This document shows positions 1 to 33,902 of a stretch of 64,000 nt of DNA, in pieces. The position numbers and the translations under genes are program-made. The notes below the pieces were generated by a model. That model did not search any database, was not told where the DNA came from, and saw only the letters and a list, made by a program, of their open reading frames with translations. Source of the DNA: an uncultured Tenacibaculum sp. (lineage in GTDB: Bacteria > Bacteroidota > Bacteroidia > Flavobacteriales > Flavobacteriaceae); the NCBI GenBank assembly GCA_963666645.2, contig CAXXDB010000003.1:405494-469493 (forward strand), read 5' to 3'. Numbering within the stretch: the stretch's first letter is position 1; each line of letters opens with the position of its first letter.

Positions 1-69
1 GGTAGTGGATTCAGCTGCAACTGGTTCTACAAGAACTCTATCTGCTAAAGGTTTAATGTTTAATACCAT
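1..69 (-). CDS. groES: Co-chaperonin GroES, 5' part (runs off window start)
   Basis: Reverse strand from ATG at 69 reads MVLNIKPLADRVLVEPVAAESTT, with the GroES N-terminal IKPLADRV motif. Confidence 0.93.
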   Translation of the reverse strand, partial: MVLNIKPLADRVLVEPVAAESTT

Positions 70-120
70 TTTTTTAAATTTTGATTAATACTTAAAGTTT
101 AATTTTTACACTTTTCTAAT

Positions 121-154
121 TGTCAGAAATTGTGCCATTGAAATAAAACTGACA
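121..154 (-). promoter_or_regulatory. Candidate chaperone promoter/operator TGTCA-N12-TGGCA-N7-TGACA (contains sigma54-like TGGCAC)
   Basis: Same three pentamers (one Y position differs) with identical spacing recur upstream of htpG at 33854-33887. Confidence 0.6.
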
Positions 155-192
155 ATTTTTCTGAACTAATCGGATTTAAAATTAAAAGGAAT

Positions 193-228
193 AAAAAAAT
201 GCCAACTTGTCATTGTTGGCATTTTTTT
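193..228 (-). terminator. Intrinsic terminator-like hairpin after secG
   Basis: aaaaaaatgccaac / gttggcattttttt perfect inverted repeat with A/T tails just past the secG stop. Confidence 0.7.
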
Positions 229-246
229 ATTATCTATATGTAAGTA

Positions 247-1292: not shown

Positions 1293-1825
1293 TTAGCTAC
1301 TGAAGTGTTAAAAATATCCTGATGAATACGAGTTAATATTTCCTCAAGAACAGATTCTAAGAGTGTACCGGATAATTGCTGTGAAGCACCATAATCAGAG
1401 TAAAAGGAAAATTGTTTTTCAAAATCGTCTTTTTCATTTAACTTATTTGTGAAACGAACATTAACAGCAATTGTTAATCGATTTTGTGCTGCGGTTTGAT
1501 TCGCAATAGCACTCATGGGAGTCACTCTATAATCAACTATCTCACCTTCAAATTGTAAATCCCCATCCGATTTTACTAACGTTAAGTTTGTTTGACGAGT
1601 AAATAAATCTTGTAAATCCTGAGTAAAACGTTGACTTAATGTAGGTTCTGTTAAAGGAGCTTGATTAGGAAAAAAATCAATTTGAATCGTTTTTGCATCA
1701 CCCGTATTACCTCCTGTAAAAGAATACACGCCACAGCCGATAAGAGATGTAATGGAAAAAAATAATAATGAGTATATAGTTTTTTTCATTTTTAAATTCA
1801 TAACATCACTCGAATTACAAGTCAT
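1286..1825 (-). CDS. lptE: LptE-family LPS assembly lipoprotein (true start probably the downstream MKK)
   Basis: Lipobox-like LIGC, GC.YSFTG and AAQNRLTI.VNVRF motifs of Bacteroidota LptE-like proteins. Confidence 0.75.
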   Translation of the reverse strand: MTCNSSDVMNLKMKKTIYSLLFFSITSLIGCGVYSFTGGNTGDAKTIQIDFFPNQAPLTEPTLSQRFTQDLQDLFTRQTNLTLVKSDGDLQFEGEIVDYRVTPMSAIANQTAAQNRLTIAVNVRFTNKLNEKDDFEKQFSFYSDYGASQQLSGTLLESVLEEILTRIHQDIFNTSVAKW

Positions 1826-3035
1826 ATTGTTTAATTTTACGATATAAAGTTCGTTCAGAAATTCCCAACTCTTTAGCTGCTAGTTTTCGTTTTCCTCTAT
1901 TTCGTTCCAATGACTTTTTAATCATTTCTTTTTCTTTTTCCTGTAACGACAAGTTTTCATGCTCCTCTATAGTTTCAATAAAATCATAATTATTTTGTGT
2001 AGAAACTTCAGGTATTTGTACAACTCCTATATCATGGGAAGAAGGGGGGTCTTTATATATACGTTGAATCAAACCTCTATTATCTTCCTGTACTTCTTGT
2101 GCATTTTTATTTTGCATCAAGTCCAGAGTTAATTTCTTGAGGTCGTTGATATCGTTGCGCATATCAAATAAGATTTTATACATAATATCCCGTTCGTTAG
2201 AAAAATCATCATTTGATGATTTTTCATCAATTACTACGGGTAAATTCCCCGTGTTATCAGGTAAATATTGAACTAGTATTTTAGAAGAGATAATTCTACT
2301 TTCTTCCATAATTGAAATTTGTTCAGCAAGATTTTTTAATTGTCTGATATTCCCGGAGAAACGATAATTCAGAAGCATATTATTGGCCTTATCATCTAAT
2401 CGAATAACAGGAATTCTGTTTTTTTGAGCAAAGTCAGAAGCAAACTTTCTAAATAATAAATGAATATCATTACCTCTGTTTCGTAAAGGAGGGAGAGAAA
2501 TTTCAATAGTACTCAACCGGTAATATAAATCTTCTCTAAATTTTCCTTTTCTGACAGCTTCCTGCATGTTTACGTTAGTAGCTGCAGTAATACGAACATT
2601 TATTTTTTGGACTTGAGACGATCCAACTTTTATGAATTCTCCGTTTTCTAACACACGGAGTAATCTAACTTGGGTTGTAAGAGGTAATTCGCCTACTTCA
2701 TCTAAAAAAATTGTTCCTCCATCGGCAACTTCAAAGTATCCTCTTCTGGTTTGTGTTGCTCCGGTAAATGCTCCTTTTTCATGACCAAACAGCTCACTAT
2801 CAATAGTTCCTTCAGGAATTGCACCACAGTTTACAGCAATATATTTTGCGTGCTTTCTATGAGATAGTTGATGAATGATTTTCGGAATATTTTCTTTTCC
2901 AACCCCACTCTCTCCGGTAGCCAATACAGAAATATCTGTAGGTGCTACCCGGACAGCTTTTTCAATAGCTCTGTTCAGTTGAATATCATTACCGATAATT
3001 CCGAAGCGTTGTTTTACTGCTTGTAAATTTTCCAT
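1815..3035 (-). CDS. Sigma54-interacting AAA+ enhancer-binding protein with C-terminal Fis-type HTH and no sensor domain
   Basis: Walker A GESGVGKE, intact GAFTGA loop, FLDEVGE Walker B, GISERTLYRKIKQY HTH. Confidence 0.92.
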   Translation of the reverse strand: MENLQAVKQRFGIIGNDIQLNRAIEKAVRVAPTDISVLATGESGVGKENIPKIIHQLSHRKHAKYIAVNCGAIPEGTIDSELFGHEKGAFTGATQTRRGYFEVADGGTIFLDEVGELPLTTQVRLLRVLENGEFIKVGSSQVQKINVRITAATNVNMQEAVRKGKFREDLYYRLSTIEISLPPLRNRGNDIHLLFRKFASDFAQKNRIPVIRLDDKANNMLLNYRFSGNIRQLKNLAEQISIMEESRIISSKILVQYLPDNTGNLPVVIDEKSSNDDFSNERDIMYKILFDMRNDINDLKKLTLDLMQNKNAQEVQEDNRGLIQRIYKDPPSSHDIGVVQIPEVSTQNNYDFIETIEEHENLSLQEKEKEMIKKSLERNRGKRKLAAKELGISERTLYRKIKQYDL

Positions 3036-4572: not shown

Positions 4573-4626
4573 AATTCTGTTTCTTCTACGGAGAGAACAA
4601 AGATACAATCAAATTTTGAGATTTAG

Positions 4627-4639
4627 TGACAACTTGTCA
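4627..4639. promoter_or_regulatory. TGACA-N3-TGTCA palindrome next to the miaB operon -7 box
   Basis: tgacaacttgtca perfect inverted repeat; TATCTTTG (-7 consensus TAnnTTTG) on the minus strand about 20 nt closer to miaB; 12/13 identical copy at 200-212. Confidence 0.5.
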
Positions 4640-22277: not shown

Positions 22278-22461
22278 CTAAAATTAAATTTACCGGATAA
22301 TGTTTTTTGATAACTGTGTTTACTCATCAAATTTGTTAAAATTTCGATTTAAATAAACCCTGAAATATAATTTAATTCAAAATAAAGATAAAAAAATTTG
22401 ACTTTTAAATTTTTATAACTGAATATTTGTGAATATAAAGTTCAAGCATTTATGATATAAT

Positions 22462-22566
22462 GTTATCAGGAAAGGTGGAGGGAATAGACCCTGTGAAACC
22501 TTAGCAACCCTTTAATCTTAAAAAGAAGGTGCTAAATTCTGCCCAAAAGGAATAGGGACAGATAAC
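22462..22566 (+). ncRNA. SAM-I riboswitch
   Basis: gttatc...gataac P1, aggtggaggga, ccctgtgaaacc, gcaacc, aaggtgctaaattc core; upstream of methionine genes. Confidence 0.92.
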
Positions 22567-22802
22567 TGGAAGAAGTTTTTAAACTATCTTTTATAAAATG
22601 AAGTTTCTAATAACATTTCTCTATAAGTAACATCAATCAAAAGTGATGGAGTTTGGCTTTCGAATTAATTTTTTATTAACTCAAAAAGCAGGAAGATGAA
22701 TAAAAGAATAGTTAAAAATTCAATTTGGTCGGTAAAAGATAAAAATCTCATATCCTTTAGTCATTTTATCCAGGCGAAAATATTAATAAAAACATAAAGT
22801 TT

Positions 22803-25800
22803 ATGGAACTAAATACAATTCCAATTCTTAGTTATGTTACAGAAAACGGCACTCATTTTTCTAACATTCAATTGAGTTATCAGCTATTTGGTAAAAAACC
22901 GGGTACTGCTCCTGTAATCTTAGTAAATCATGCATTAACAGGAAATAGTAACACAGCAGGAGAAAAAGGCTGGTGGAAAGAAATTATTGGAAACAATAAA
23001 GTAATTAATACAGAAGATTATACAATTGTAAGTTTTAATATACCAGGGAATGGATACGATAATTTTATTATTGATGATTATAAAAATTTTGTAGCAAAAG
23101 ATATTGCTAAGATATTCCTGTTAGGGTTGGAAAAATTAAAAATTAAACAATTATATGCTTTAATGGGAGGTTCATTAGGAGGAGGAATTGCCTGGGAAAT
23201 GGCAGTATTGCAACCAAAAATTACAACCCATTTAATTCCTATAGCTACTGACTGGAAATCGACAGATTGGTTGATTGCTAACTGCAAGATTCAAGAATTA
23301 TTTTTAACAAACTCTACAAATCCGGTACATGATGCTCGTATGCATGCAATGCTATGTTACAGAACACCTGAATCATTCAAACAACGATTTCAGCGGAGCA
23401 GAAACGAAACCTTGCAAGTATTTAATGTAGAAAGTTGGTTATTACACCACGGAAAAAAACTACAGGAAAGATACCAATTAGCATCCTATAAGCTGATGAA
23501 TCAATTATTAAAAACAATTGATGTAACTAAAAATCAAGAGAGTGAAGATTTGCTTAAAAATATTCAAGCCAATATTCATATTGTAGGAGTAGATTCAGAT
23601 TTATTTTTTACAGCGGCAGAAAATAGAGAGACTTATAAGCAATTGGCACAAAAACACCCAAATGTTACCTATAATGAAATTAACTCAGTACATGGACATG
23701 ATGCTTTTTTAATAGAACATGAACAGTTGGAAAAAATTTTTGACCCCATTTTTAAGAAGAAGACAAATACTAAAAAAATGAAAGTTTTGAAGTTTGGAGG
23801 AAAATCCTTATCCAATAAAGGAATTCAAAAGGCAATAGATATTATTGAGCGTAAAATTAATAAAGGTGAACGAATAACAGTAGTAGTTTCTGCCAGAGGA
23901 AACGCAACAGATATATTAGAAACCATTTTACAAAAAGCAACTAAAAATGAAGTCTATCAAGAACAGTTAGAAGCTTTTAAATATGAACAAGCTAGATTAA
24001 CCCCTCTAATAGATTTTAATCAGGAATTTCAAAAACTTGAAAAATTATTCGAAGGAATAAATTTGTTAGGAGATTGTAGTGATAAAATTAAAGATGAAGT
24101 TTTAGCACAGGGAGAATTAATCTCAATAAAAACAGTTACTGAATTATTAAAGCAAAGAGGGATTAATGCACATGCTATTGATGCCAGAGCATTATTAAAA
24201 ACCGATGAGAGCTTTGGAAATGCAAAACCCATAGATATTATTTCTAAAGAAAATATAATAAATCATTATAAAGAACATAATGGAGCTACAGTCACCATTG
24301 TATCTGGGTTTATTGCTTCCAATTTAAAAAATGAAACCACTACTTTAGGAAGAAACGGGAGTAATTATACAGCCTCTTTACTGGCAAATTATTTAGATGC
24401 AGGAGAGCTTCAAAATTACACGCACGTAGATGGAATTTTTACGGCAAACCCGGATTTAGTAGATGATGCTAAAAAGATTGAACAACTATCATTCTCTGAA
24501 GCAAATGAATTAGCAAATTTTGGAGCAAATATTTTACATGCTAAAACAATAATTCCATTAATAGAAAAAAATATTAATCTCAGAATCCTTAACACCTTTA
24601 AGCCGGAAAATCAAGGAACACTTATTACTTCCCAATCCAATTCAAAAGGCATTAAGTCCATTTCAGTTTTAGAGAATGTAGCATTGATAAATTTTGAAGG
24701 AAGAGGATTATTAGGAAAAGTCGGAATAGCTGCAAGAATTTTTAAATCATTAAGTGACAGAGAAATAAGTATAAGTATTATTTCTCAGGGTTCTTCAGAA
24801 AGAGGAATTGGTTTGGTTGTAAATAATCAGAAAGCTTCATTGGCAGTGCAGGCTTTACAAAAAGAATTTGAATACGATTTACAAACAAAAGATGTAAATC
24901 AGATAACAATCATAAATGAAGTATCGGTAATCTCAATTATAGGACAGGATCTGAGTGAGTTTCATTTACCCTATAATGCACTAATACAAAACCAAATTAT
25001 CCCATTATTGTTTAACAATACCATAACAGGTAAAAATGTGAGCTTAGTCGTTAGAAAAAAACAGTTACATAAGACAGTAAATGTAATTCACGGACAAATT
25101 TTTGGAATCGCTAAAAAAATCAATATTGCTGTTTTCGGAAAAGGAGCAGTAGGCGGAACATTAATTAATCAAATTATAGAAAGCTCGTCAAATATTCTGG
25201 AAAGAAGAAAAGTACTATTAGTTGTTTTTGCCGTTGCAAACTCAAAAAAAGTTTTATTAAATAAAGATGGAATCGATAAAAACTGGAATGAGAAATTAGA
25301 GAAAAGTGAAATTGAAAATACCGTGAACTCTGTTATAGATTATGCAAAAAAGTATCATTTAGAAAATTTAATAGCAGTAGACAATACGGCAAGTCTGGAT
25401 TTTATAGGAGAATATATTCCTTTAGCAAAAGTAGGTTTTGATTTAGTTTCTTCAAACAAAATAGCCAATACGGTAACGCATCATTTTTATAAAAAATTAA
25501 GACAGACTCTGGAAGAAAATAAGAAAAGCTACCTTTATGAAACAAATGTAGGAGCTGGATTACCATTAATAGACACTATAAAATTATTACACGATTCTGG
25601 GGAAAATATTACAAGAATCCGTGGAGTTTTCTCAGGGTCATTAAGTTTTATATTCAATAAATTTTCTTCAGAAAATATTCCTTTCTCAGAAGTGCTGGAA
25701 GAAGCTATTGATAAAGGATTTACCGAGCCGGATCCAAGAGAAGATTTATGTGGTAATGATGTAGCCAGAAAATTATTGATTTTGGCCAGAGAGCTTGATT

Positions 25801-26192
25801 TAAAAAATGAATTTGATGAAATCTCTATAGAAAATTTAATTCCGAAAGAATACAGAGAAGGAACTGTAGAAAACTTTATTTCCAATTTAAAAAAGTTAAA
25901 CGCACACTATCAGGAAATTAAAGAGGAACAACAAAAAGATTTTGTATTAAGATATACAGGAGATTTATATGGAGATCTTCAAAAATCCAGAGGAGAATTA
26001 GATGTGAAATTAATTTCTGTTCCTAAAAATACTCCCTTAGGAAGCTTAAAAGGCTCTGATGCAATTTTTGAAATTTATACAGAATCATATGGAAATCAAC
26101 CTTTGGTAATTCAGGGAGCCGGAGCCGGAGCTGAAGTAACCGCAAGAGGCGTATTAGGAGATATATTAAGGTTAACAAAAAACAATAAATAA
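22803..26192 (+). CDS. Fusion of homoserine O-acyltransferase (MetX-like) and aspartate kinase/homoserine dehydrogenase
   Basis: NHALTG, GGSLGG nucleophile, HGHDAFL; then KVLKFGG, GRNGSNYT, DGIFTANP, ACT domains, G.GAVG, YETNVGAGLP, TEPDPREDL, GAGAGAEVTA in one 1129-aa ORF. Confidence 0.9.
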   Translation: MELNTIPILSYVTENGTHFSNIQLSYQLFGKKPGTAPVILVNHALTGNSNTAGEKGWWKEIIGNNKVINTEDYTIVSFNIPGNGYDNFIIDDYKNFVAKDIAKIFLLGLEKLKIKQLYALMGGSLGGGIAWEMAVLQPKITTHLIPIATDWKSTDWLIANCKIQELFLTNSTNPVHDARMHAMLCYRTPESFKQRFQRSRNETLQVFNVESWLLHHGKKLQERYQLASYKLMNQLLKTIDVTKNQESEDLLKNIQANIHIVGVDSDLFFTAAENRETYKQLAQKHPNVTYNEINSVHGHDAFLIEHEQLEKIFDPIFKKKTNTKKMKVLKFGGKSLSNKGIQKAIDIIERKINKGERITVVVSARGNATDILETILQKATKNEVYQEQLEAFKYEQARLTPLIDFNQEFQKLEKLFEGINLLGDCSDKIKDEVLAQGELISIKTVTELLKQRGINAHAIDARALLKTDESFGNAKPIDIISKENIINHYKEHNGATVTIVSGFIASNLKNETTTLGRNGSNYTASLLANYLDAGELQNYTHVDGIFTANPDLVDDAKKIEQLSFSEANELANFGANILHAKTIIPLIEKNINLRILNTFKPENQGTLITSQSNSKGIKSISVLENVALINFEGRGLLGKVGIAARIFKSLSDREISISIISQGSSERGIGLVVNNQKASLAVQALQKEFEYDLQTKDVNQITIINEVSVISIIGQDLSEFHLPYNALIQNQIIPLLFNNTITGKNVSLVVRKKQLHKTVNVIHGQIFGIAKKINIAVFGKGAVGGTLINQIIESSSNILERRKVLLVVFAVANSKKVLLNKDGIDKNWNEKLEKSEIENTVNSVIDYAKKYHLENLIAVDNTASLDFIGEYIPLAKVGFDLVSSNKIANTVTHHFYKKLRQTLEENKKSYLYETNVGAGLPLIDTIKLLHDSGENITRIRGVFSGSLSFIFNKFSSENIPFSEVLEEAIDKGFTEPDPREDLCGNDVARKLLILARELDLKNEFDEISIENLIPKEYREGTVENFISNLKKLNAHYQEIKEEQQKDFVLRYTGDLYGDLQKSRGELDVKLISVPKNTPLGSLKGSDAIFEIYTESYGNQPLVIQGAGAGAEVTARGVLGDILRLTKNNK

Positions 26193-31918: not shown

Positions 31919-33814
31919 TTATTCAGATAATGTTATTAAATCATACGATTGCTTAATAAAGTTTGTTAGTTCTTTACCATGTAATAAGTTTTGAGATAAT
32001 CTGGCTAAATCAAAGGCCTGAGAAATTAATTGCTTTTGTTTTTCCTCATCGGCATTTAAGATACCTGAAACTAATTCATGATTTGTATTAACCGCCAAGT
32101 TATACATCTCCGGCATATTACCCATTCCCGTCATACCCCCACCTGTAGTACTCATTTCTTTCATACGGCGCATAAATTCGGGAACAGTAATTAAGAAAGG
32201 AGAAGCAGAAGAGTCCATTGCTTCTAGCTGTACTGTATAGCTTGAATTGTTAACAGCACTTTCAATAACGGGTTTTAATTTCTCTTTTTCTTCATCTGAA
32301 AGTTTTGAAATTACTGTGTCATCCTTTTTAATTAAATTATCAATATGGTCAGCATCTACACGTTTAAATTGAATTTTAGCATCTCCCGATGATGTTTCTA
32401 ATTTTTGAATTAAATGAGATACTATAGGGGAATCGAGTAGCACTACTTCGTACCCTTTTGCTTTTGCATTTTGTATATAGCTATGTTGTGCATCTTTACC
32501 GGAAGCATATAAAATTATATGATTTCCATCTTTGTCAGTTTGTGTGTTTTTTGTTTTTTCAACTAATTCATCGAAAGTAAAGAAAGTATCATTTACCGTT
32601 GGATATAAAGAGAATTTCTTTGCTTTATCAAAGAATTTATCTTCAGATAACATTCCATATTCGATAATTACCTTAATATCATTCCATTTTTGCTCAAAAT
32701 CTTCACGATCTTTTTTAAATAAAGAAGAAAGTTTATCAGCTACTTTTTTGGTAATATATCCTGATATTTTCTTTACAGCACCATCAGCTTGCAAGTATGA
32801 TCGTGATACATTTAACGGAATATCCGGTGAATCAATTATCCCCTTTAGCATTTGTAAGAAATCAGGAACGATTCCTTCAACGTTGTCGGTTACAAAAACT
32901 TGATTTTGATATAATTGAATCTTATCCTTTTGAATATCAATATTTTGAGACAGACGAGGAAAATATAAAATGCCTGTTAAGTTAAATGGATAATCAACAT
33001 TTAAGTGGATGTTAAATAAGGGTTCTTCAAATTGAGCGGGGTATAACTCTCTATAAAATGTTTTATAATCTTCTGCTTCTAAATCTGCAGGTTTTTTTGT
33101 CCAGGCAGGATTGGTATTATTAATAATATTGTTTACCTCTCTTGTTTCCGGTTTTGCATCTTCAGCGGCGTCTTTTGGTAAGGGTAATGTTTCAGTTTTT
33201 GTTCCGAATTTAATTGGAATTTGATTGAAACGATTATATTTTGTTAATAAACTGGAAATTTTGTGATCTTCTAAGAACTCTTTTTCATCGTCAGAAATAT
33301 GTAAAATAATTTCTGTGCCTCTTTCAGTTTTATCATGTGGTTTTAATGTGTATTCCGGAGAACCGTCACAAATCCAGTGAGCTGCAGATTCATCTTTATA
33401 GGATTTAGTAATAATCTCTACTTTGTCTGCAACCATAAAGGCAGAGTAGAAGCCTAACCCGAAATGACCAATAACTCCAGTCTCATTATTAGAATCTTTA
33501 TACTTTTCTAAAAATTCTTCTGCTCCTGAAAATGCAATTTGATTGATGTATTTTTCCACTTCCTTTGTAGTCATTCCTAAACCGTAATCGATGATATGAA
33601 GTGTTTTGCTGTCTTTATTAATCTTAATTTCTATTTGCGGATTGCCATGTTCAATCTTTGCTTCATCTATAGAAATTAAGTGCTTTAATTTGGTTGTGGC
33701 ATCTGTTGCATTAGAAATTAATTCACGTAAAAATATCTCATGATCTGAATACAAGAATTTTTTAATTAATGGGAAAATATTTTCTACTGATACATTAATA
33801 TTTCCTTTACTCAT
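31919..33814 (-). CDS. htpG: Chaperone HtpG (Hsp90)
   Basis: EIFLRELISNATDA, IGHFGLGFYSAFMVA, DSPDIPLNVSRS. Confidence 0.97.
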   Translation of the reverse strand: MSKGNINVSVENIFPLIKKFLYSDHEIFLRELISNATDATTKLKHLISIDEAKIEHGNPQIEIKINKDSKTLHIIDYGLGMTTKEVEKYINQIAFSGAEEFLEKYKDSNNETGVIGHFGLGFYSAFMVADKVEIITKSYKDESAAHWICDGSPEYTLKPHDKTERGTEIILHISDDEKEFLEDHKISSLLTKYNRFNQIPIKFGTKTETLPLPKDAAEDAKPETREVNNIINNTNPAWTKKPADLEAEDYKTFYRELYPAQFEEPLFNIHLNVDYPFNLTGILYFPRLSQNIDIQKDKIQLYQNQVFVTDNVEGIVPDFLQMLKGIIDSPDIPLNVSRSYLQADGAVKKISGYITKKVADKLSSLFKKDREDFEQKWNDIKVIIEYGMLSEDKFFDKAKKFSLYPTVNDTFFTFDELVEKTKNTQTDKDGNHIILYASGKDAQHSYIQNAKAKGYEVVLLDSPIVSHLIQKLETSSGDAKIQFKRVDADHIDNLIKKDDTVISKLSDEEKEKLKPVIESAVNNSSYTVQLEAMDSSASPFLITVPEFMRRMKEMSTTGGGMTGMGNMPEMYNLAVNTNHELVSGILNADEEKQKQLISQAFDLARLSQNLLHGKELTNFIKQSYDLITLSE

Positions 33815-33853
33815 TTCTTAATTGATTTTAGTTTATAAATTTAAGTTTTTTAA

Positions 33854-33887
33854 TGTCAAAAAAAATACCAAAGCATTTCTTATGACA
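33854..33887 (-). promoter_or_regulatory. Candidate chaperone promoter/operator TGTCA-N12-TGGTA-N7-TGACA
   Basis: Identical spacing to the groES element at 121-154; extra TGTCA copy immediately upstream. Confidence 0.6.
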
Positions 33888-33902
33888 ATATGACATATAA
33901 GA

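What the first reader, a model, noticed from the sequence alone, without database searches (positions are those of the whole stretch)
121..154. Identically spaced 34-bp element upstream of both groES and htpG: candidate non-CIRCE chaperone promoter
Seen: on the coding strand, groES (121-154) has TGTCA-gttttatttcaa-TGGCA-caatttc-TGACA and htpG (33854-33887) has TGTCA-taagaaatgctt-TGGTA-ttttttt-TGACA. Spacers are 12 and 7 nt in both, and the element ends 51 and 39 nt before the start codons. Known: it is not CIRCE (TTAGCACTC-N9-GAGTGCTAA), and TGGCAC resembles the sigma54 -24 box. Inference: a shared chaperone promoter/operator, possibly a sigma54 -24/-12 promoter with a TGA in place of TGC at -12, framed by a TGTCA/TGACA inverted repeat.
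Basis: partly seen in the sequence, partly recalled or inferred. Interest (0 to 1): 0.75.

Follow-up and report, generated by a model that had tools for sequence, protein, structure and literature searches.

The report
Sigma-54 chaperone promoter with enhancer box
The 34-bp element shared by groES and htpG is a sigma-54-type heat-shock promoter with a conserved TGTCA protein-binding box at a fixed distance upstream; this promoter type has been mapped in Flavobacterium, but the box and its likely sensor-less activator, encoded 2 kb from groES, appear in none of the papers I could search or read.

Summary
TGTCA-N12-TGGYA-N7-TGACA occurs twice in the window and twice in the whole 2.63-Mb Tenacibaculum genome, 51 and 39 nt before groES and htpG.

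- **Core.** TGGYAY-N5-YTGA is a sigma-54 -24/-12 promoter. In Flavobacterium psychrophilum the groS promoter has the same layout and a mapped start site (Guerin 2021). TTGA/TTGT at -12 is common among the sigma-54 promoters mapped there.
- **Left arm.** This TGTCA is real and deeply conserved. It is the proximal half of a dyad box, TGNCA-N3-TGNCA, set 12-13 nt before the -24 TGG. Box plus promoter occurs in 57 of 61 Flavobacteriaceae genera, with 0 hits for the reversed pattern. All 20 sampled sites precede dnaK, htpG, groES or hsp20.
- **Right arm.** TGACA is just the -12 region and is not conserved (19/103 htpG, 5/32 groES). The "inverted-repeat frame" is therefore coincidental.
- **Likely binder (inferred).** The genome's only enhancer-binding protein with a DNA-binding domain is at window 1815-3035. 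It has no sensor domain. It lies 1.8-3.5 kb upstream of groES in 54 of 59 genera, and the same box precedes miaB, the gene directly upstream of it, in 20 of 20 genera.

The genome has no hrcA, rpoH or CIRCE. Verdict: a new member of a known promoter kind, with an apparently unreported enhancer and activator.

The parts
132..137 (-). groES promoter, -24 element TGGCAC
   Evidence: Sequence. It aligns with TGGCA(C/T) of groES promoters in 32 of 34 relatives and with the sigma-54 (SM4) groS promoter of F. psychrophilum.
121..129 (-). groES promoter, -12 region TTTCTGACA (G at 124; GG-N10-GA).
   Evidence: Sequence. Orthologous promoters have CTGC or TAGC at the same register, which is the canonical GG-N10-GC. 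TGACA is present in only 5/32 groES promoters.
150..154 (-). groES proximal TGTCA half-box, 12 nt before the TGG of the -24 element. The left half (AGAAA, 158-162) is degenerate.
   Evidence: TGTCA in 31/32 groES promoters, spacing 12 in 30/32. The same is seen in F. psychrophilum groS.
200..212 (-). Distal full dyad box TGACAagtTGGCA, embedded in the secG terminator hairpin, 62 nt before the groES TGG
   Evidence: Found in the genome-wide scan for TGNCA-N3-TGNCA. An equivalent TGCCAgccTGTCA sits in the secG terminator of two same-family genomes of another genus. Function not tested.
190..231 (-). Intrinsic terminator of secG, which isolates groES from upstream transcription
   Evidence: Terminator scan. 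RNA fold -19.8 kcal/mol, z = -7.1.
108..112 (-). Predicted groES transcription start (about 25 nt after the GG). Inferred, not measured.
   Evidence: By analogy with the mapped TSS of F. psychrophilum groS.
1..69 (-). 5' end of groES (runs off the window)
   Evidence: Translation MVLNIKPLADRVLVEP.... groEL follows in the genome.
33883..33895 (-). htpG dyad box TGTCAtatTGTCA.
   Evidence: Proximal TGTCA in 96/103 and distal TGTCA in 85/103 htpG promoters of Flavobacteriaceae; spacing to TGG is 12 (71) or 13 (32).
33865..33870 (-). htpG promoter, -24 element TGGTAT
   Evidence: Consensus TGGTAtTTTTTTTGaC over 100 distinct htpG promoters.
33854..33860 (-). htpG promoter, -12 region TTTGACA (G at 33857).
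   Evidence: In relatives this pentamer is TGACT 42, TGACA 19, TGAAA 9, TGTCT 9 and others.
33841..33845 (-). Predicted htpG transcription start (inferred)
   Evidence: Same register as the mapped F. psychrophilum sigma-54 promoters. Not measured here.
31919..33814 (-). htpG
   Evidence: NF003555, E = 5e-192.
1815..3035 (-). Sensor-less enhancer-binding protein (P0001, 406 aa): AAA+ sigma-54 interaction domain from residue 13, GAFTGA loop, Fis-type HTH at 365-404. Candidate binder of the box.
   Evidence: Pfam PF00158, PF25601, PF02954; sequence. It is the only bEBP with an HTH in the genome. An orthologue lies on the same strand 1.8-3.5 kb upstream of groES in 54/59 genera.
4627..4639 (-). 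Dyad box TGACAagtTGTCA, 21 nt before a sigma-A -7 box (TATCTTTG, 4598-4605) of miaB, the first gene of the miaB-bEBP-lptE cluster
   Evidence: Sequence. The same box lies about 17-18 nt (21 nt in this genome) before TATCTTTG/TATATTTG in front of miaB in 19 of 20 sampled genera; in the 20th the box lies just before the called start and no -7 box was marked.

Best explanation
The element is a sigma-54-dependent (RpoN) heat-shock promoter.

**Promoter.** TGGCAC/TGGTAT is the -24 element. The G of YTGA, 10 nt after the GG, is the -12 element. Transcription should start about 25 nt after the GG, near 110 for groES and 33843 for htpG. That would leave 5' leaders of about 40 and 30 nt.

**Box.** The TGTCA 12 nt upstream of the TGG is the promoter-proximal half of a dyad-symmetric 13-bp site, TGNCA-N3-TGNCA. 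The site is complete at htpG, grpE-dnaJ and dnaK, and half-degenerate at groES. It marks the cytoplasmic-chaperone subset of the sigma-54 regulon.

**Binder (inferred).** The site is bound by the dimeric Fis-type HTH of the sensor-less enhancer-binding protein at window 1815-3035. That protein would use ATP to open the closed sigma-54 complex from a position about two helical turns upstream of -24. It would also bind the same site at the -33 position of the sigma-A promoter of miaB, the gene directly upstream of its own; if transcription reads through, it would repress its own synthesis.

**What is shown and what is not.**
- Shown: the sequence, the conservation, the gene association, the gene inventory, and a mapped TSS in an orthologous promoter.
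- Inferred: sigma-54 dependence in this species, which protein binds the box, and the direction of regulation.
- Unknown: how temperature or misfolded protein is sensed. Control in trans, as PspA controls PspF, possibly by chaperone titration, is speculation.
For: **Promoter type**
- GG-N10-G cores lie before groES, htpG, dnaK, grpE, clpB, lon and rsfS-ftsH in this genome.
- rpoN is present (382 bits).
- There is no hrcA, no rpoH above cut-off and no CIRCE.
- No TAnnTTTG box lies on the coding strand between the secG terminator and groES.
- In F. psychrophilum, 5'-end RNA-seq TSSs with motif SM4 (sigma-54) precede groS, lon, dnaK, grpE-dnaJ, htpG, clpB and skp (PMC9723704). Its groS row reads aaaTGTCAgttttaaatccTTGGCATAATTTCTGAAAAG.

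**Box**
- TGNCANNNTGNCA-N11-13-TGGYAY-N5-NTR occurs in 57/61 Flavobacteriaceae genera, about 107 sites, with 0 in the reversed control.
- All 20 sampled sites precede dnaK (13), htpG (3), groES (1) or hsp20 (3).
- In class Bacteroidia it occurs in 49/151 genomes, 57 sites against 3 control hits. Of 20 sampled sites, 17 precede htpG, groES, dnaK, clpB, hsp20, a dnaJ-like gene or secA; the other three precede a thioredoxin gene, a possibly rhomboid-like ORF and an unidentified ORF.
- Among the mapped F. psychrophilum SM4 promoters, TGTCA or TGTCC at N12 is present at groS and clpB. It is absent at remF, skp, muramidase and a lipoprotein.

**Binder**
- The genome has two bEBPs. P0001 has AAA+, GAFTGA and HTH_8 but no N-terminal domain. 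The other is REC plus AAA+ with no HTH.
- The P0001 orthologue is on the same strand 1.8-3.5 kb upstream of groES in 54/59 genera.
- It is single-copy in 148/151 Bacteroidia genomes, including two 0.5-Mb genomes.
- The box precedes miaB, the gene directly upstream of the P0001 gene, in 20/20 genera, in 19 of them about 17-18 nt before a sigma-A -7 box.
- The HTH sequence ISERTLYRKIKQYDL is nearly invariant in the family.
Against:
- The -12 dinucleotide is GA, not the canonical GC.
- The box centre lies near -46. That is far closer than classical enhancer sites, which by general knowledge lie about -70 to -150 (my recollection, not tested here). So it could instead be an operator for a repressor or a co-factor.
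- lon, clpB and rsfS-ftsH in this genome have the core but no box. So the box is not needed at every proteostasis promoter, or the second HTH-less bEBP also acts.
- In F. psychrophilum the bEBP gene has its own SM5 promoter. The box before miaB therefore need not be autoregulation.
- TGNCA-N3-TGNCA is not enriched genome-wide: 21 sites found, about 21 expected by my estimate.
- In dnaK of this genome the box is displaced; the nearest TGTCA is 20 nt from the TGG.
Confidence: 0.72

Rival explanations
1. The core is a sigma-54 promoter, but the TGNCA-N3-TGNCA box is the operator of a separate, not yet identified regulator. This could be a heat-labile repressor or an anti-activator that sits next to the closed complex. 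The bEBP would act from elsewhere or from solution.
For: - The box is unusually close to the promoter (centre about -46) and in fixed register, 12-13 nt from the TGG in 103/103 htpG promoters. That is typical of operators and class-I-type sites.
- The same box overlaps the -33 region of a sigma-A promoter at miaB, where a bEBP could only repress.
- Box-less sigma-54 promoters exist at lon and clpB.
Against: - P0001 has a conserved HTH that needs a target, and it is the only bEBP in the genome with one.
- The box sits at the gene cluster that encodes P0001 in 20/20 genera, and P0001 is syntenic with groES in 54/59.
- No candidate repressor gene shows such linkage.
- No hrcA is present.
Confidence: 0.17
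2. The 34-bp element acts as one unit: a TGTCA-N24-TGACA inverted repeat bound by a dimer or tetramer that brackets the promoter.
For: Both arms are present with identical spacing at groES and htpG in this genome, and in 10 of 25 Tenacibaculum genomes.
Against: - The right arm is TGACA in only 19/103 htpG and 5/32 groES promoters of relatives, while the left arm is kept in 96/103 and 31/32.
- F. psychrophilum groS has TGAAA there.
- TGTCA-N24-TGACA occurs at about the chance rate genome-wide: 2 found, about 2.5 expected by my estimate.
- The right arm coincides with the -12 element, whose G is what is conserved.
Confidence: 0.04
3. It is an ordinary sigma-A or ECF-type promoter, or a chance similarity between two AT-rich leaders.
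For: The genome is 31% G+C, so T-rich runs such as TGGTATTTTTTTTGA are easy to obtain. Bacteroidota sigma-A promoters are also T-rich.
Against: - 0.01 matches expected against 2 observed.
- Family-wide conservation with an empty reversed control.
- No TAnnTTTG box in the groES leader.
- The 7-nt gap between TGGYA and TGA fits -24/-12, not -33/-7 or -35/-10.
- The mapped TSS in F. psychrophilum is assigned to SM4 with probability 1.
Confidence: 0.03

Closest known systems
SM4 (sigma-54) promoters of the protein-quality-control genes of Flavobacterium psychrophilum (Guerin et al. 2021, ISME Commun, PMC9723704)
   Same: - Same family (Flavobacteriaceae) and same genes: groS-groL, htpG, dnaK, grpE-dnaJ, lon, clpB.
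- Same -24/-12 motif, with TTGA/TTGT common at -12.
[quoted passage not shown]
- Their groS promoter string contains the same TGTCA-N12-TGGCA-N7-TGA layout.
   Different: - The paper does not mention the TGTCA box or any enhancer; 'TGTCA' occurs only inside sequence strings in its supplements.
- It leaves open which of three bEBPs acts.
- It validated only the remF promoter by mutagenesis.
- The present copies are in Tenacibaculum, with GA at -12 of groES where many relatives have GC.
PSSM survey of sigma-54 regulons (PLoS One 2025, PMC12316311), and Sabree et al. 2009 (Blattabacterium), which that paper cites
   Same: It predicts sigma-54 promoters enriched before GroES, GroEL, DnaK, DnaJ, GrpE, IbpA, HtpG, Clp and Lon genes in Bacteroidota, most strongly in Flavobacteriia.
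   Different: It is purely computational and works at the level of COG enrichment. The passages I found on chaperone genes name no enhancer site and no activator. Sabree 2009 could not be read.
PspF and the phage-shock regulon of Escherichia coli
   Same: - The activator has no N-terminal sensor domain (AAA+ then HTH).
- The PspF model TIGR02974 aligns end to end with P0001 (13-404 against 1-336 of 336).
- It controls a stress regulon. My recollection, not tested here: PspF binds its own promoter region and is controlled in trans by PspA.
   Different: - P0001 scores 260 bits against a cut-off of 443.55, so it is not a PspF equivalog.
- It carries an extra conserved segment of about 60 aa (about 262-325) plus an acidic linker before the HTH.
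- Its candidate site lies near -46 rather than the -80 to -126 with IHF that I recall for PspF.
- Its targets are cytoplasmic chaperones.
- No PspA-like partner was looked for.
Sigma-32 (RpoH) and HrcA/CIRCE heat-shock control
   Same: The same target genes (groESL, dnaK, grpE-dnaJ, htpG, clpB, lon) are grouped in one regulon by a shared cis element.
   Different: The mechanism differs: an ATP-dependent activator plus sigma-54, rather than an unstable sigma-70-family factor or a repressor. hrcA, rpoH and CIRCE are absent from this genome.

Membership tests
Sigma-54-dependent (-24/-12) promoter | GG and G(C) separated by 10 nt (TGGCAC-N5-TTGC-like) | tested here: met
   groES TGGCACAATTTCTGA and htpG TGGTATTTTTTTTGA both have GG-N10-G. 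The same register is seen in 100 htpG and 29 groES promoters of relatives.
Sigma-54-dependent (-24/-12) promoter | Conserved C of the -12 GC dinucleotide | tested here: not met
   Both copies have GA. Orthologous groES promoters in many genera have GC (TAGC or CTGC). Mapped F. psychrophilum SM4 promoters commonly have TTGA/TTGT. This is a family-typical deviation, not a disqualifier.
Sigma-54-dependent (-24/-12) promoter | rpoN and at least one GAFTGA enhancer-binding protein encoded in the genome | tested here: met
   rpoN TIGR02395, 382 bits, above cut-off. Two PF00158 proteins are present, one with GAFTGA.
Sigma-54-dependent (-24/-12) promoter | Transcription start about 12 nt after the -12 element; dependence on rpoN | not testable with these tools
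The TSS is mapped only for the orthologous F. psychrophilum promoters. No rpoN mutant data were found for any Bacteroidota.
bEBP upstream activating sequence (enhancer) | Dyad-symmetric site matching a dimeric HTH | tested here: met
   TGNCA-N3-TGNCA is its own reverse complement in all specified positions. It is conserved at htpG, dnaK, hsp20 and groES.
bEBP upstream activating sequence (enhancer) | Location about 70-150 bp upstream, acting by DNA looping | tested here: not met
   The proximal half-site ends 12-13 nt before the TGG, so the box centre is near -46, in fixed register. A second, distal box exists at groES, 62 nt before the TGG.
bEBP upstream activating sequence (enhancer) | Demonstrated binding by the cognate bEBP | not testable with these tools
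   Only linkage evidence is available: synteny in 54/59 genera, the box before miaB, directly upstream of the bEBP gene, in 20/20 genera, and P0001 being the only HTH-bearing bEBP.
CIRCE/HrcA operator | TTAGCACTC-N9-GAGTGCTAA inverted repeat and an hrcA gene | tested here: not met
   No site with fewer than 4 mismatches exists, and none lies at a chaperone gene. hrcA TIGR00331 gives no match.
Bacteroidota sigma-A promoter | TAnnTTTG -7 box upstream of the gene | tested here: not met
   No TAnnTTTG lies on the coding strand between the secG terminator and the groES ATG. Reading the htpG leader by eye, I found none either.
PspF-type (sensor-less) enhancer-binding protein, for P0001 | AAA+ domain at the N-terminus with no regulatory domain, plus a C-terminal HTH | tested here: met
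   PF00158 covers residues 13-179, the lid 185-260 and HTH_8 365-404.
PspF-type (sensor-less) enhancer-binding protein, for P0001 | Score above the curated PspF equivalog cut-off | tested here: not met
   TIGR02974 scores 260.3 bits against a cut-off of 443.55. No NCBIfam equivalog is reached.

The most novel reading that the evidence does not exclude
The class Bacteroidia, perhaps all Bacteroidota, runs its core heat-shock regulon (groESL, dnaK, grpE-dnaJ, htpG, hsp20, clpB) through one universal, single-copy, sensor-less sigma-54 activator. This is the P0001 family, kept even in 0.5-Mb endosymbiont genomes.

The activator would bind a promoter-proximal TGNCA-N3-TGNCA site in fixed helical phase with the -24 element. 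It would repress its own operon through the same site. It would be switched in trans, for example by titration of a chaperone from its conserved middle segment.

That would be a third major design of bacterial heat-shock control, beside sigma-32 and the HrcA/HspR/CtsR repressors. It would also be an enhancer that works without looping.
Probability: 0.4. Interest if true: 0.75.

Novelty: new member of a known kind. Interest (0 to 1): 0.45.

Why it matters
How Bacteroidota sense and respond to heat is not settled. This genome lacks sigma-32 and HrcA. The only published data I found are TSS maps and motif surveys that point to sigma-54.

This locus adds two things.
- **A precise cis-element.** The element is TGNCA-N3-TGNCA, 12-13 nt before -24. 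It separates the chaperone promoters from the other sigma-54 promoters.
- **A single candidate regulator.** The regulator's gene sits next to groES.

Both can be tested directly in a tractable, harmless relative such as Flavobacterium johnsoniae. If confirmed, they would name the heat-shock regulator of a whole class that includes gut Bacteroides and marine flavobacteria. They would also give an example of a sigma-54 activator working from immediately beside the promoter.

As a single locus, the finding is an ordinary copy of a promoter type already mapped in Flavobacterium.

Tried and rejected
- **Sabree et al. 2009 (PMC2780778).** This paper is cited for sigma-54-dependent grpE and groES in Bacteroidota. 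It is not held.
- **Literature on rpoN or bEBP mutants or an enhancer at chaperone genes in Bacteroidota.** Searches gave only the two papers used. Francke 2011 does not mention Bacteroidetes chaperones.
- **Rfam scan.** The window shows no RNA element in either leader; the only hit is a SAM riboswitch elsewhere. An RNA thermometer of a known family is therefore not indicated.
- **Canonical TGGCAY-N5-TTGCW.** It occurs 3 times in the genome, never before an ORF. The strict textbook consensus is not how sigma-54 promoters look here.
- **Genome-wide enrichment of the box.** TGTCA-N3-TGTCA (5 sites) and TGNCA-N3-TGNCA (21 sites) occur at roughly chance frequency. Only position and pairing with the -24/-12 core carry information.
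- **The inverted-repeat 'frame'.** Rejected on conservation.
- **CIRCE, HrcA and RpoH.** Rejected.
- **Structure prediction of P0001.** Not run. It would not reveal DNA specificity, and orthologues fetched by the genome search may not be accepted as alignment rows.

Full report
**1. Observation**

On the minus strand the window reads, at 154->121, TGTCA-gttttatttcaa-TGGCA-caatttc-TGACA. This ends 51 nt before the groES ATG at 69. At 33887->33854 it reads TGTCA-taagaaatgctt-TGGTA-ttttttt-TGACA, ending 39 nt before the htpG ATG at 33814. htpG is confirmed by NF003555, and groES by its translation with groEL downstream.

The pattern TGTCA-N12-TGGYA-N7-TGACA has 2 matches in the window against 0.01 expected. 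It has exactly 2 matches in the whole 2.63-Mb genome. The outer inverted repeat TGTCA-N24-TGACA also occurs only at these two places. By base composition I expect about 2.5 such sites, so the repeat by itself is not significant. The central TGGYA and the location before two chaperone genes are what carry the signal.

The organism is a Tenacibaculum: its htpG is 91% identical to that of Tenacibaculum sp. ZS6-P6.

**2. The core is a sigma-54 -24/-12 promoter**

Both copies have GG-N10-G. The same core lies before other proteostasis genes in this genome:

| Gene | Core |
|---|---|
| dnaK | TGGCATGACCTTTGA |
| grpE-dnaJ | TGGCAATATTCTTG |
| clpB | TGGTATTGATTTTGT |
| lon | TGGCACAACTATTGA |
| rsfS-ftsH | TGGCATCAAGTTTGA |

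- rpoN is present.
- The genome has no hrcA, no rpoH above cut-off and no CIRCE.
- A strong intrinsic terminator after secG (190-231) isolates groES.
- No Bacteroidota sigma-A box (TAnnTTTG) lies in the groES leader.

The published parallel is direct. In Flavobacterium psychrophilum, 5'-end RNA-seq and motif discovery gave a motif SM4 with "the typical -24/-12 elements of sigma-54". Its mapped TSSs precede groES-groEL, lon, dnaK, grpE-dnaJ and htpG (co-expression cluster B254), plus skp and clpB (PMC9723704, SI).

Their Table S2 row for groS reads AAAaaatgtcagttttaaatccTTGGCATAATTTCTGAAAAGacaataac... (TSS 867211, SM4 probability 1, 5'UTR 30 nt). Other mapped SM4 promoters there end in TTGA, TTGT or TTGAC. 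So TGA at -12 is common in this family rather than an exception. The textbook TGGCAY-N5-TTGCW occurs only 3 times in this genome and never before an ORF.

A 2025 PSSM survey also predicts sigma-54 promoters enriched at chaperone genes in Bacteroidota, most strongly in Flavobacteriia (PMC12316311).

**3. The left arm is real; the right arm is not an arm**

I collected htpG upstream regions from 106 Flavobacteriaceae genomes and groES regions from 34.

| Feature | htpG | groES |
|---|---|---|
| TGNCA pentamer 11-13 nt before TGG | 103 of 106 | 32 of 34 |
| That pentamer is TGTCA | 96/103 | 31/32 |
| Spacing | 12 in 71, 13 in 32 | 12 in 30/32 |
| Second pentamer 3 nt further upstream | TGTCA 85, TGCCA 10, TGACA 3 | degenerate (TGAAA, AGAAA, TGCAA) |

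At htpG the conserved unit is therefore TGNCA-N3-TGNCA, which reads the same on both strands. At groES the distal half is degenerate.

At the right-arm position, htpG promoters otherwise carry TGACT (42), TGAAA (9) or TGTCT (9). groES promoters otherwise carry AGCAT, TGCCT and similar, which keep the canonical -12 GC. The right arm is thus the -12 region, and the 34-bp "frame" is a coincidence of this genus.

**4. The box marks the chaperone subset of the regulon**

The pattern TGNCANNNTGNCA-N11-13-TGGYAY-N5-NTR was found in 57 of 61 genera of the family, about 107 sites and usually two per genome. The reversed-pattern control gave 0 hits in all 61 genomes. Twenty sampled sites precede dnaK (13), htpG (3), groES (1) and hsp20 (3).

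Across the class Bacteroidia, 49 of 151 genomes have it, 57 sites against 3 control hits. Twenty sampled sites precede:
- htpG (8)
- groES (2)
- dnaK (2)
- hsp20 (2)
- clpB, secA, a dnaJ-like gene, a thioredoxin, a possibly rhomboid-like ORF and one unidentified ORF (1 each)

Among the experimentally mapped F. psychrophilum SM4 promoters, a TGTCA or TGTCC at N12 is present at groS and clpB. It is absent at remF, skp, a muramidase and a lipoprotein.

In this genome:

| Promoter | Box |
|---|---|
| htpG | full box at N12 |
| grpE-dnaJ | full box at N12 (TGCCAttaTGACA) |
| groES | half box at N12 |
| dnaK | tandem box pushed away by an A15 run; a single TGTCA 20 nt from the TGG |
| lon, clpB, rsfS-ftsH | none |

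**5. Who binds the box (inference)**

The genome encodes two sigma-54 activators.

- **P0001 (window 1815-3035, 406 aa).** It starts directly with the AAA+ domain at residue 13. It has GAFTGA, a lid, a conserved segment of about 60 aa, an acidic linker and a Fis-type HTH at 365-404.
- **The second activator (contig C3, near 520 kb).** It is receiver plus AAA+ with GSFTGA and has no HTH.

P0001 is therefore the only activator here that can read DNA. Three observations link it to the box:
- Its orthologue is present in 61 of 61 genera. In 54 of 59 it lies on the same strand 1.8-3.5 kb upstream of groES, in the order miaB - bEBP - lptE - x - secG - groES.
- In 20 of 20 sampled genera, and in the window (4627-4639), the same dyad box precedes miaB, the first gene of that cluster. 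In 19 of the 20 it lies about 17-18 nt before a sigma-A -7 box (21 nt in the window). At that position a bound protein would repress.
- The orthologue is single-copy and full-length in 148 of 151 Bacteroidia genomes. These include two 0.5-Mb genomes whose groES still has TGGCATAAAAAATGA upstream.

P0001 reaches no NCBIfam equivalog. PspF aligns end to end with it but scores below the cut-off.

This is classical regulon inference, not proof. The box centre lies near -46, about two helical turns from -24. That is much closer than the usual enhancers, so a separate operator-binding protein remains a live rival.

**6. Comparison, novelty and verdict**

The promoter itself belongs to a kind already mapped in the same family.

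I found neither the dyad box, nor its fixed phase, nor its assignment to the sensor-less activator in the papers I could read. Several earlier notes of this scan reached the same reading in other Bacteroidota genomes. I treated them as leads and re-derived each claim here.

How the system senses heat is unknown.

**Limits**
- TSS positions in the window are extrapolated.
- Gene identities of sampled downstream ORFs rest on N-terminal sequence recognition, not on profile searches.

Noticed in passing
window 190-231 (- strand), box at 200-212: The secG intrinsic terminator hairpin carries a full dyad box (TGACAagtTGGCA) in its loop and 3' arm. Two same-family genomes of another genus have TGCCAgccTGTCA in the same hairpin (L231, L232). 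One sequence may serve both as an RNA terminator and as a distal DNA site for the groES promoter.
   Followed up: partly
genome contig C3, about 519.9-521.1 kb (locus L153:1246-2421, - strand): The second sigma-54 activator has a receiver plus an AAA+ domain (GSFTGA) but no DNA-binding domain. It is a likely enhancer-independent activator for the box-less sigma-54 promoters.
   Followed up: partly
L001 and L005 (two other Tenacibaculum genomes): The complete 34-bp pattern also precedes an ABC-transporter-like gene (MQHLKESTKNKKKPKV...). This may be an extra regulon member in some species. It has no counterpart among the two sites of this genome.
   Followed up: no
genome contig C4:53307-53375 (dnaK upstream): The dnaK promoter of this genome has three CTGTCA copies and a 15-A run between the last one and the TGGCAT. 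In other genera dnaK has TGACAnnnTGTCA exactly 12 nt before the TGG. This looks like a slippage insertion that displaced the box.
   Followed up: partly
genome contig C8:375364-375376: A perfect TGTCAttttGTCA tandem lies 28 nt before a 252-aa membrane protein with an HExxH-like motif, possibly a zinc metallopeptidase. No -24/-12 core follows it.
   Followed up: no
window 22460-22568 (+): SAM riboswitch (RF00162, 80.6 bits), ending about 230 nt upstream of the 1129-aa ORF at 22803-26192.
   Followed up: no
P0001, residues about 262-325 (window about 2061-2252, - strand): A conserved segment (NLP.VI...SDFSNEREILYKVLFDM..D.NDLKKLT.EL) lies between the AAA+ lid and the acidic linker and HTH. It matched no Pfam domain in the scan of P0001. 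It is a candidate regulatory or oligomerisation module.
   Followed up: partly
G113 and G159 (0.5-Mb genomes of the same class; L233, L234): These tiny, very AT-rich genomes keep a full-length P0001 orthologue (48-51% identity) and TGGCATAAAAAATGA before groES. Their TGTCA copies lie about 70-130 nt upstream instead of at N12.
   Followed up: partly
genome contigs C1:1539 / C7:21624, and C3:228070 / C7:8127 / C9:484485: Identical motif-plus-flank sequences recur on different contigs. This suggests repeated elements or duplicated contig ends in the assembly.
   Followed up: no
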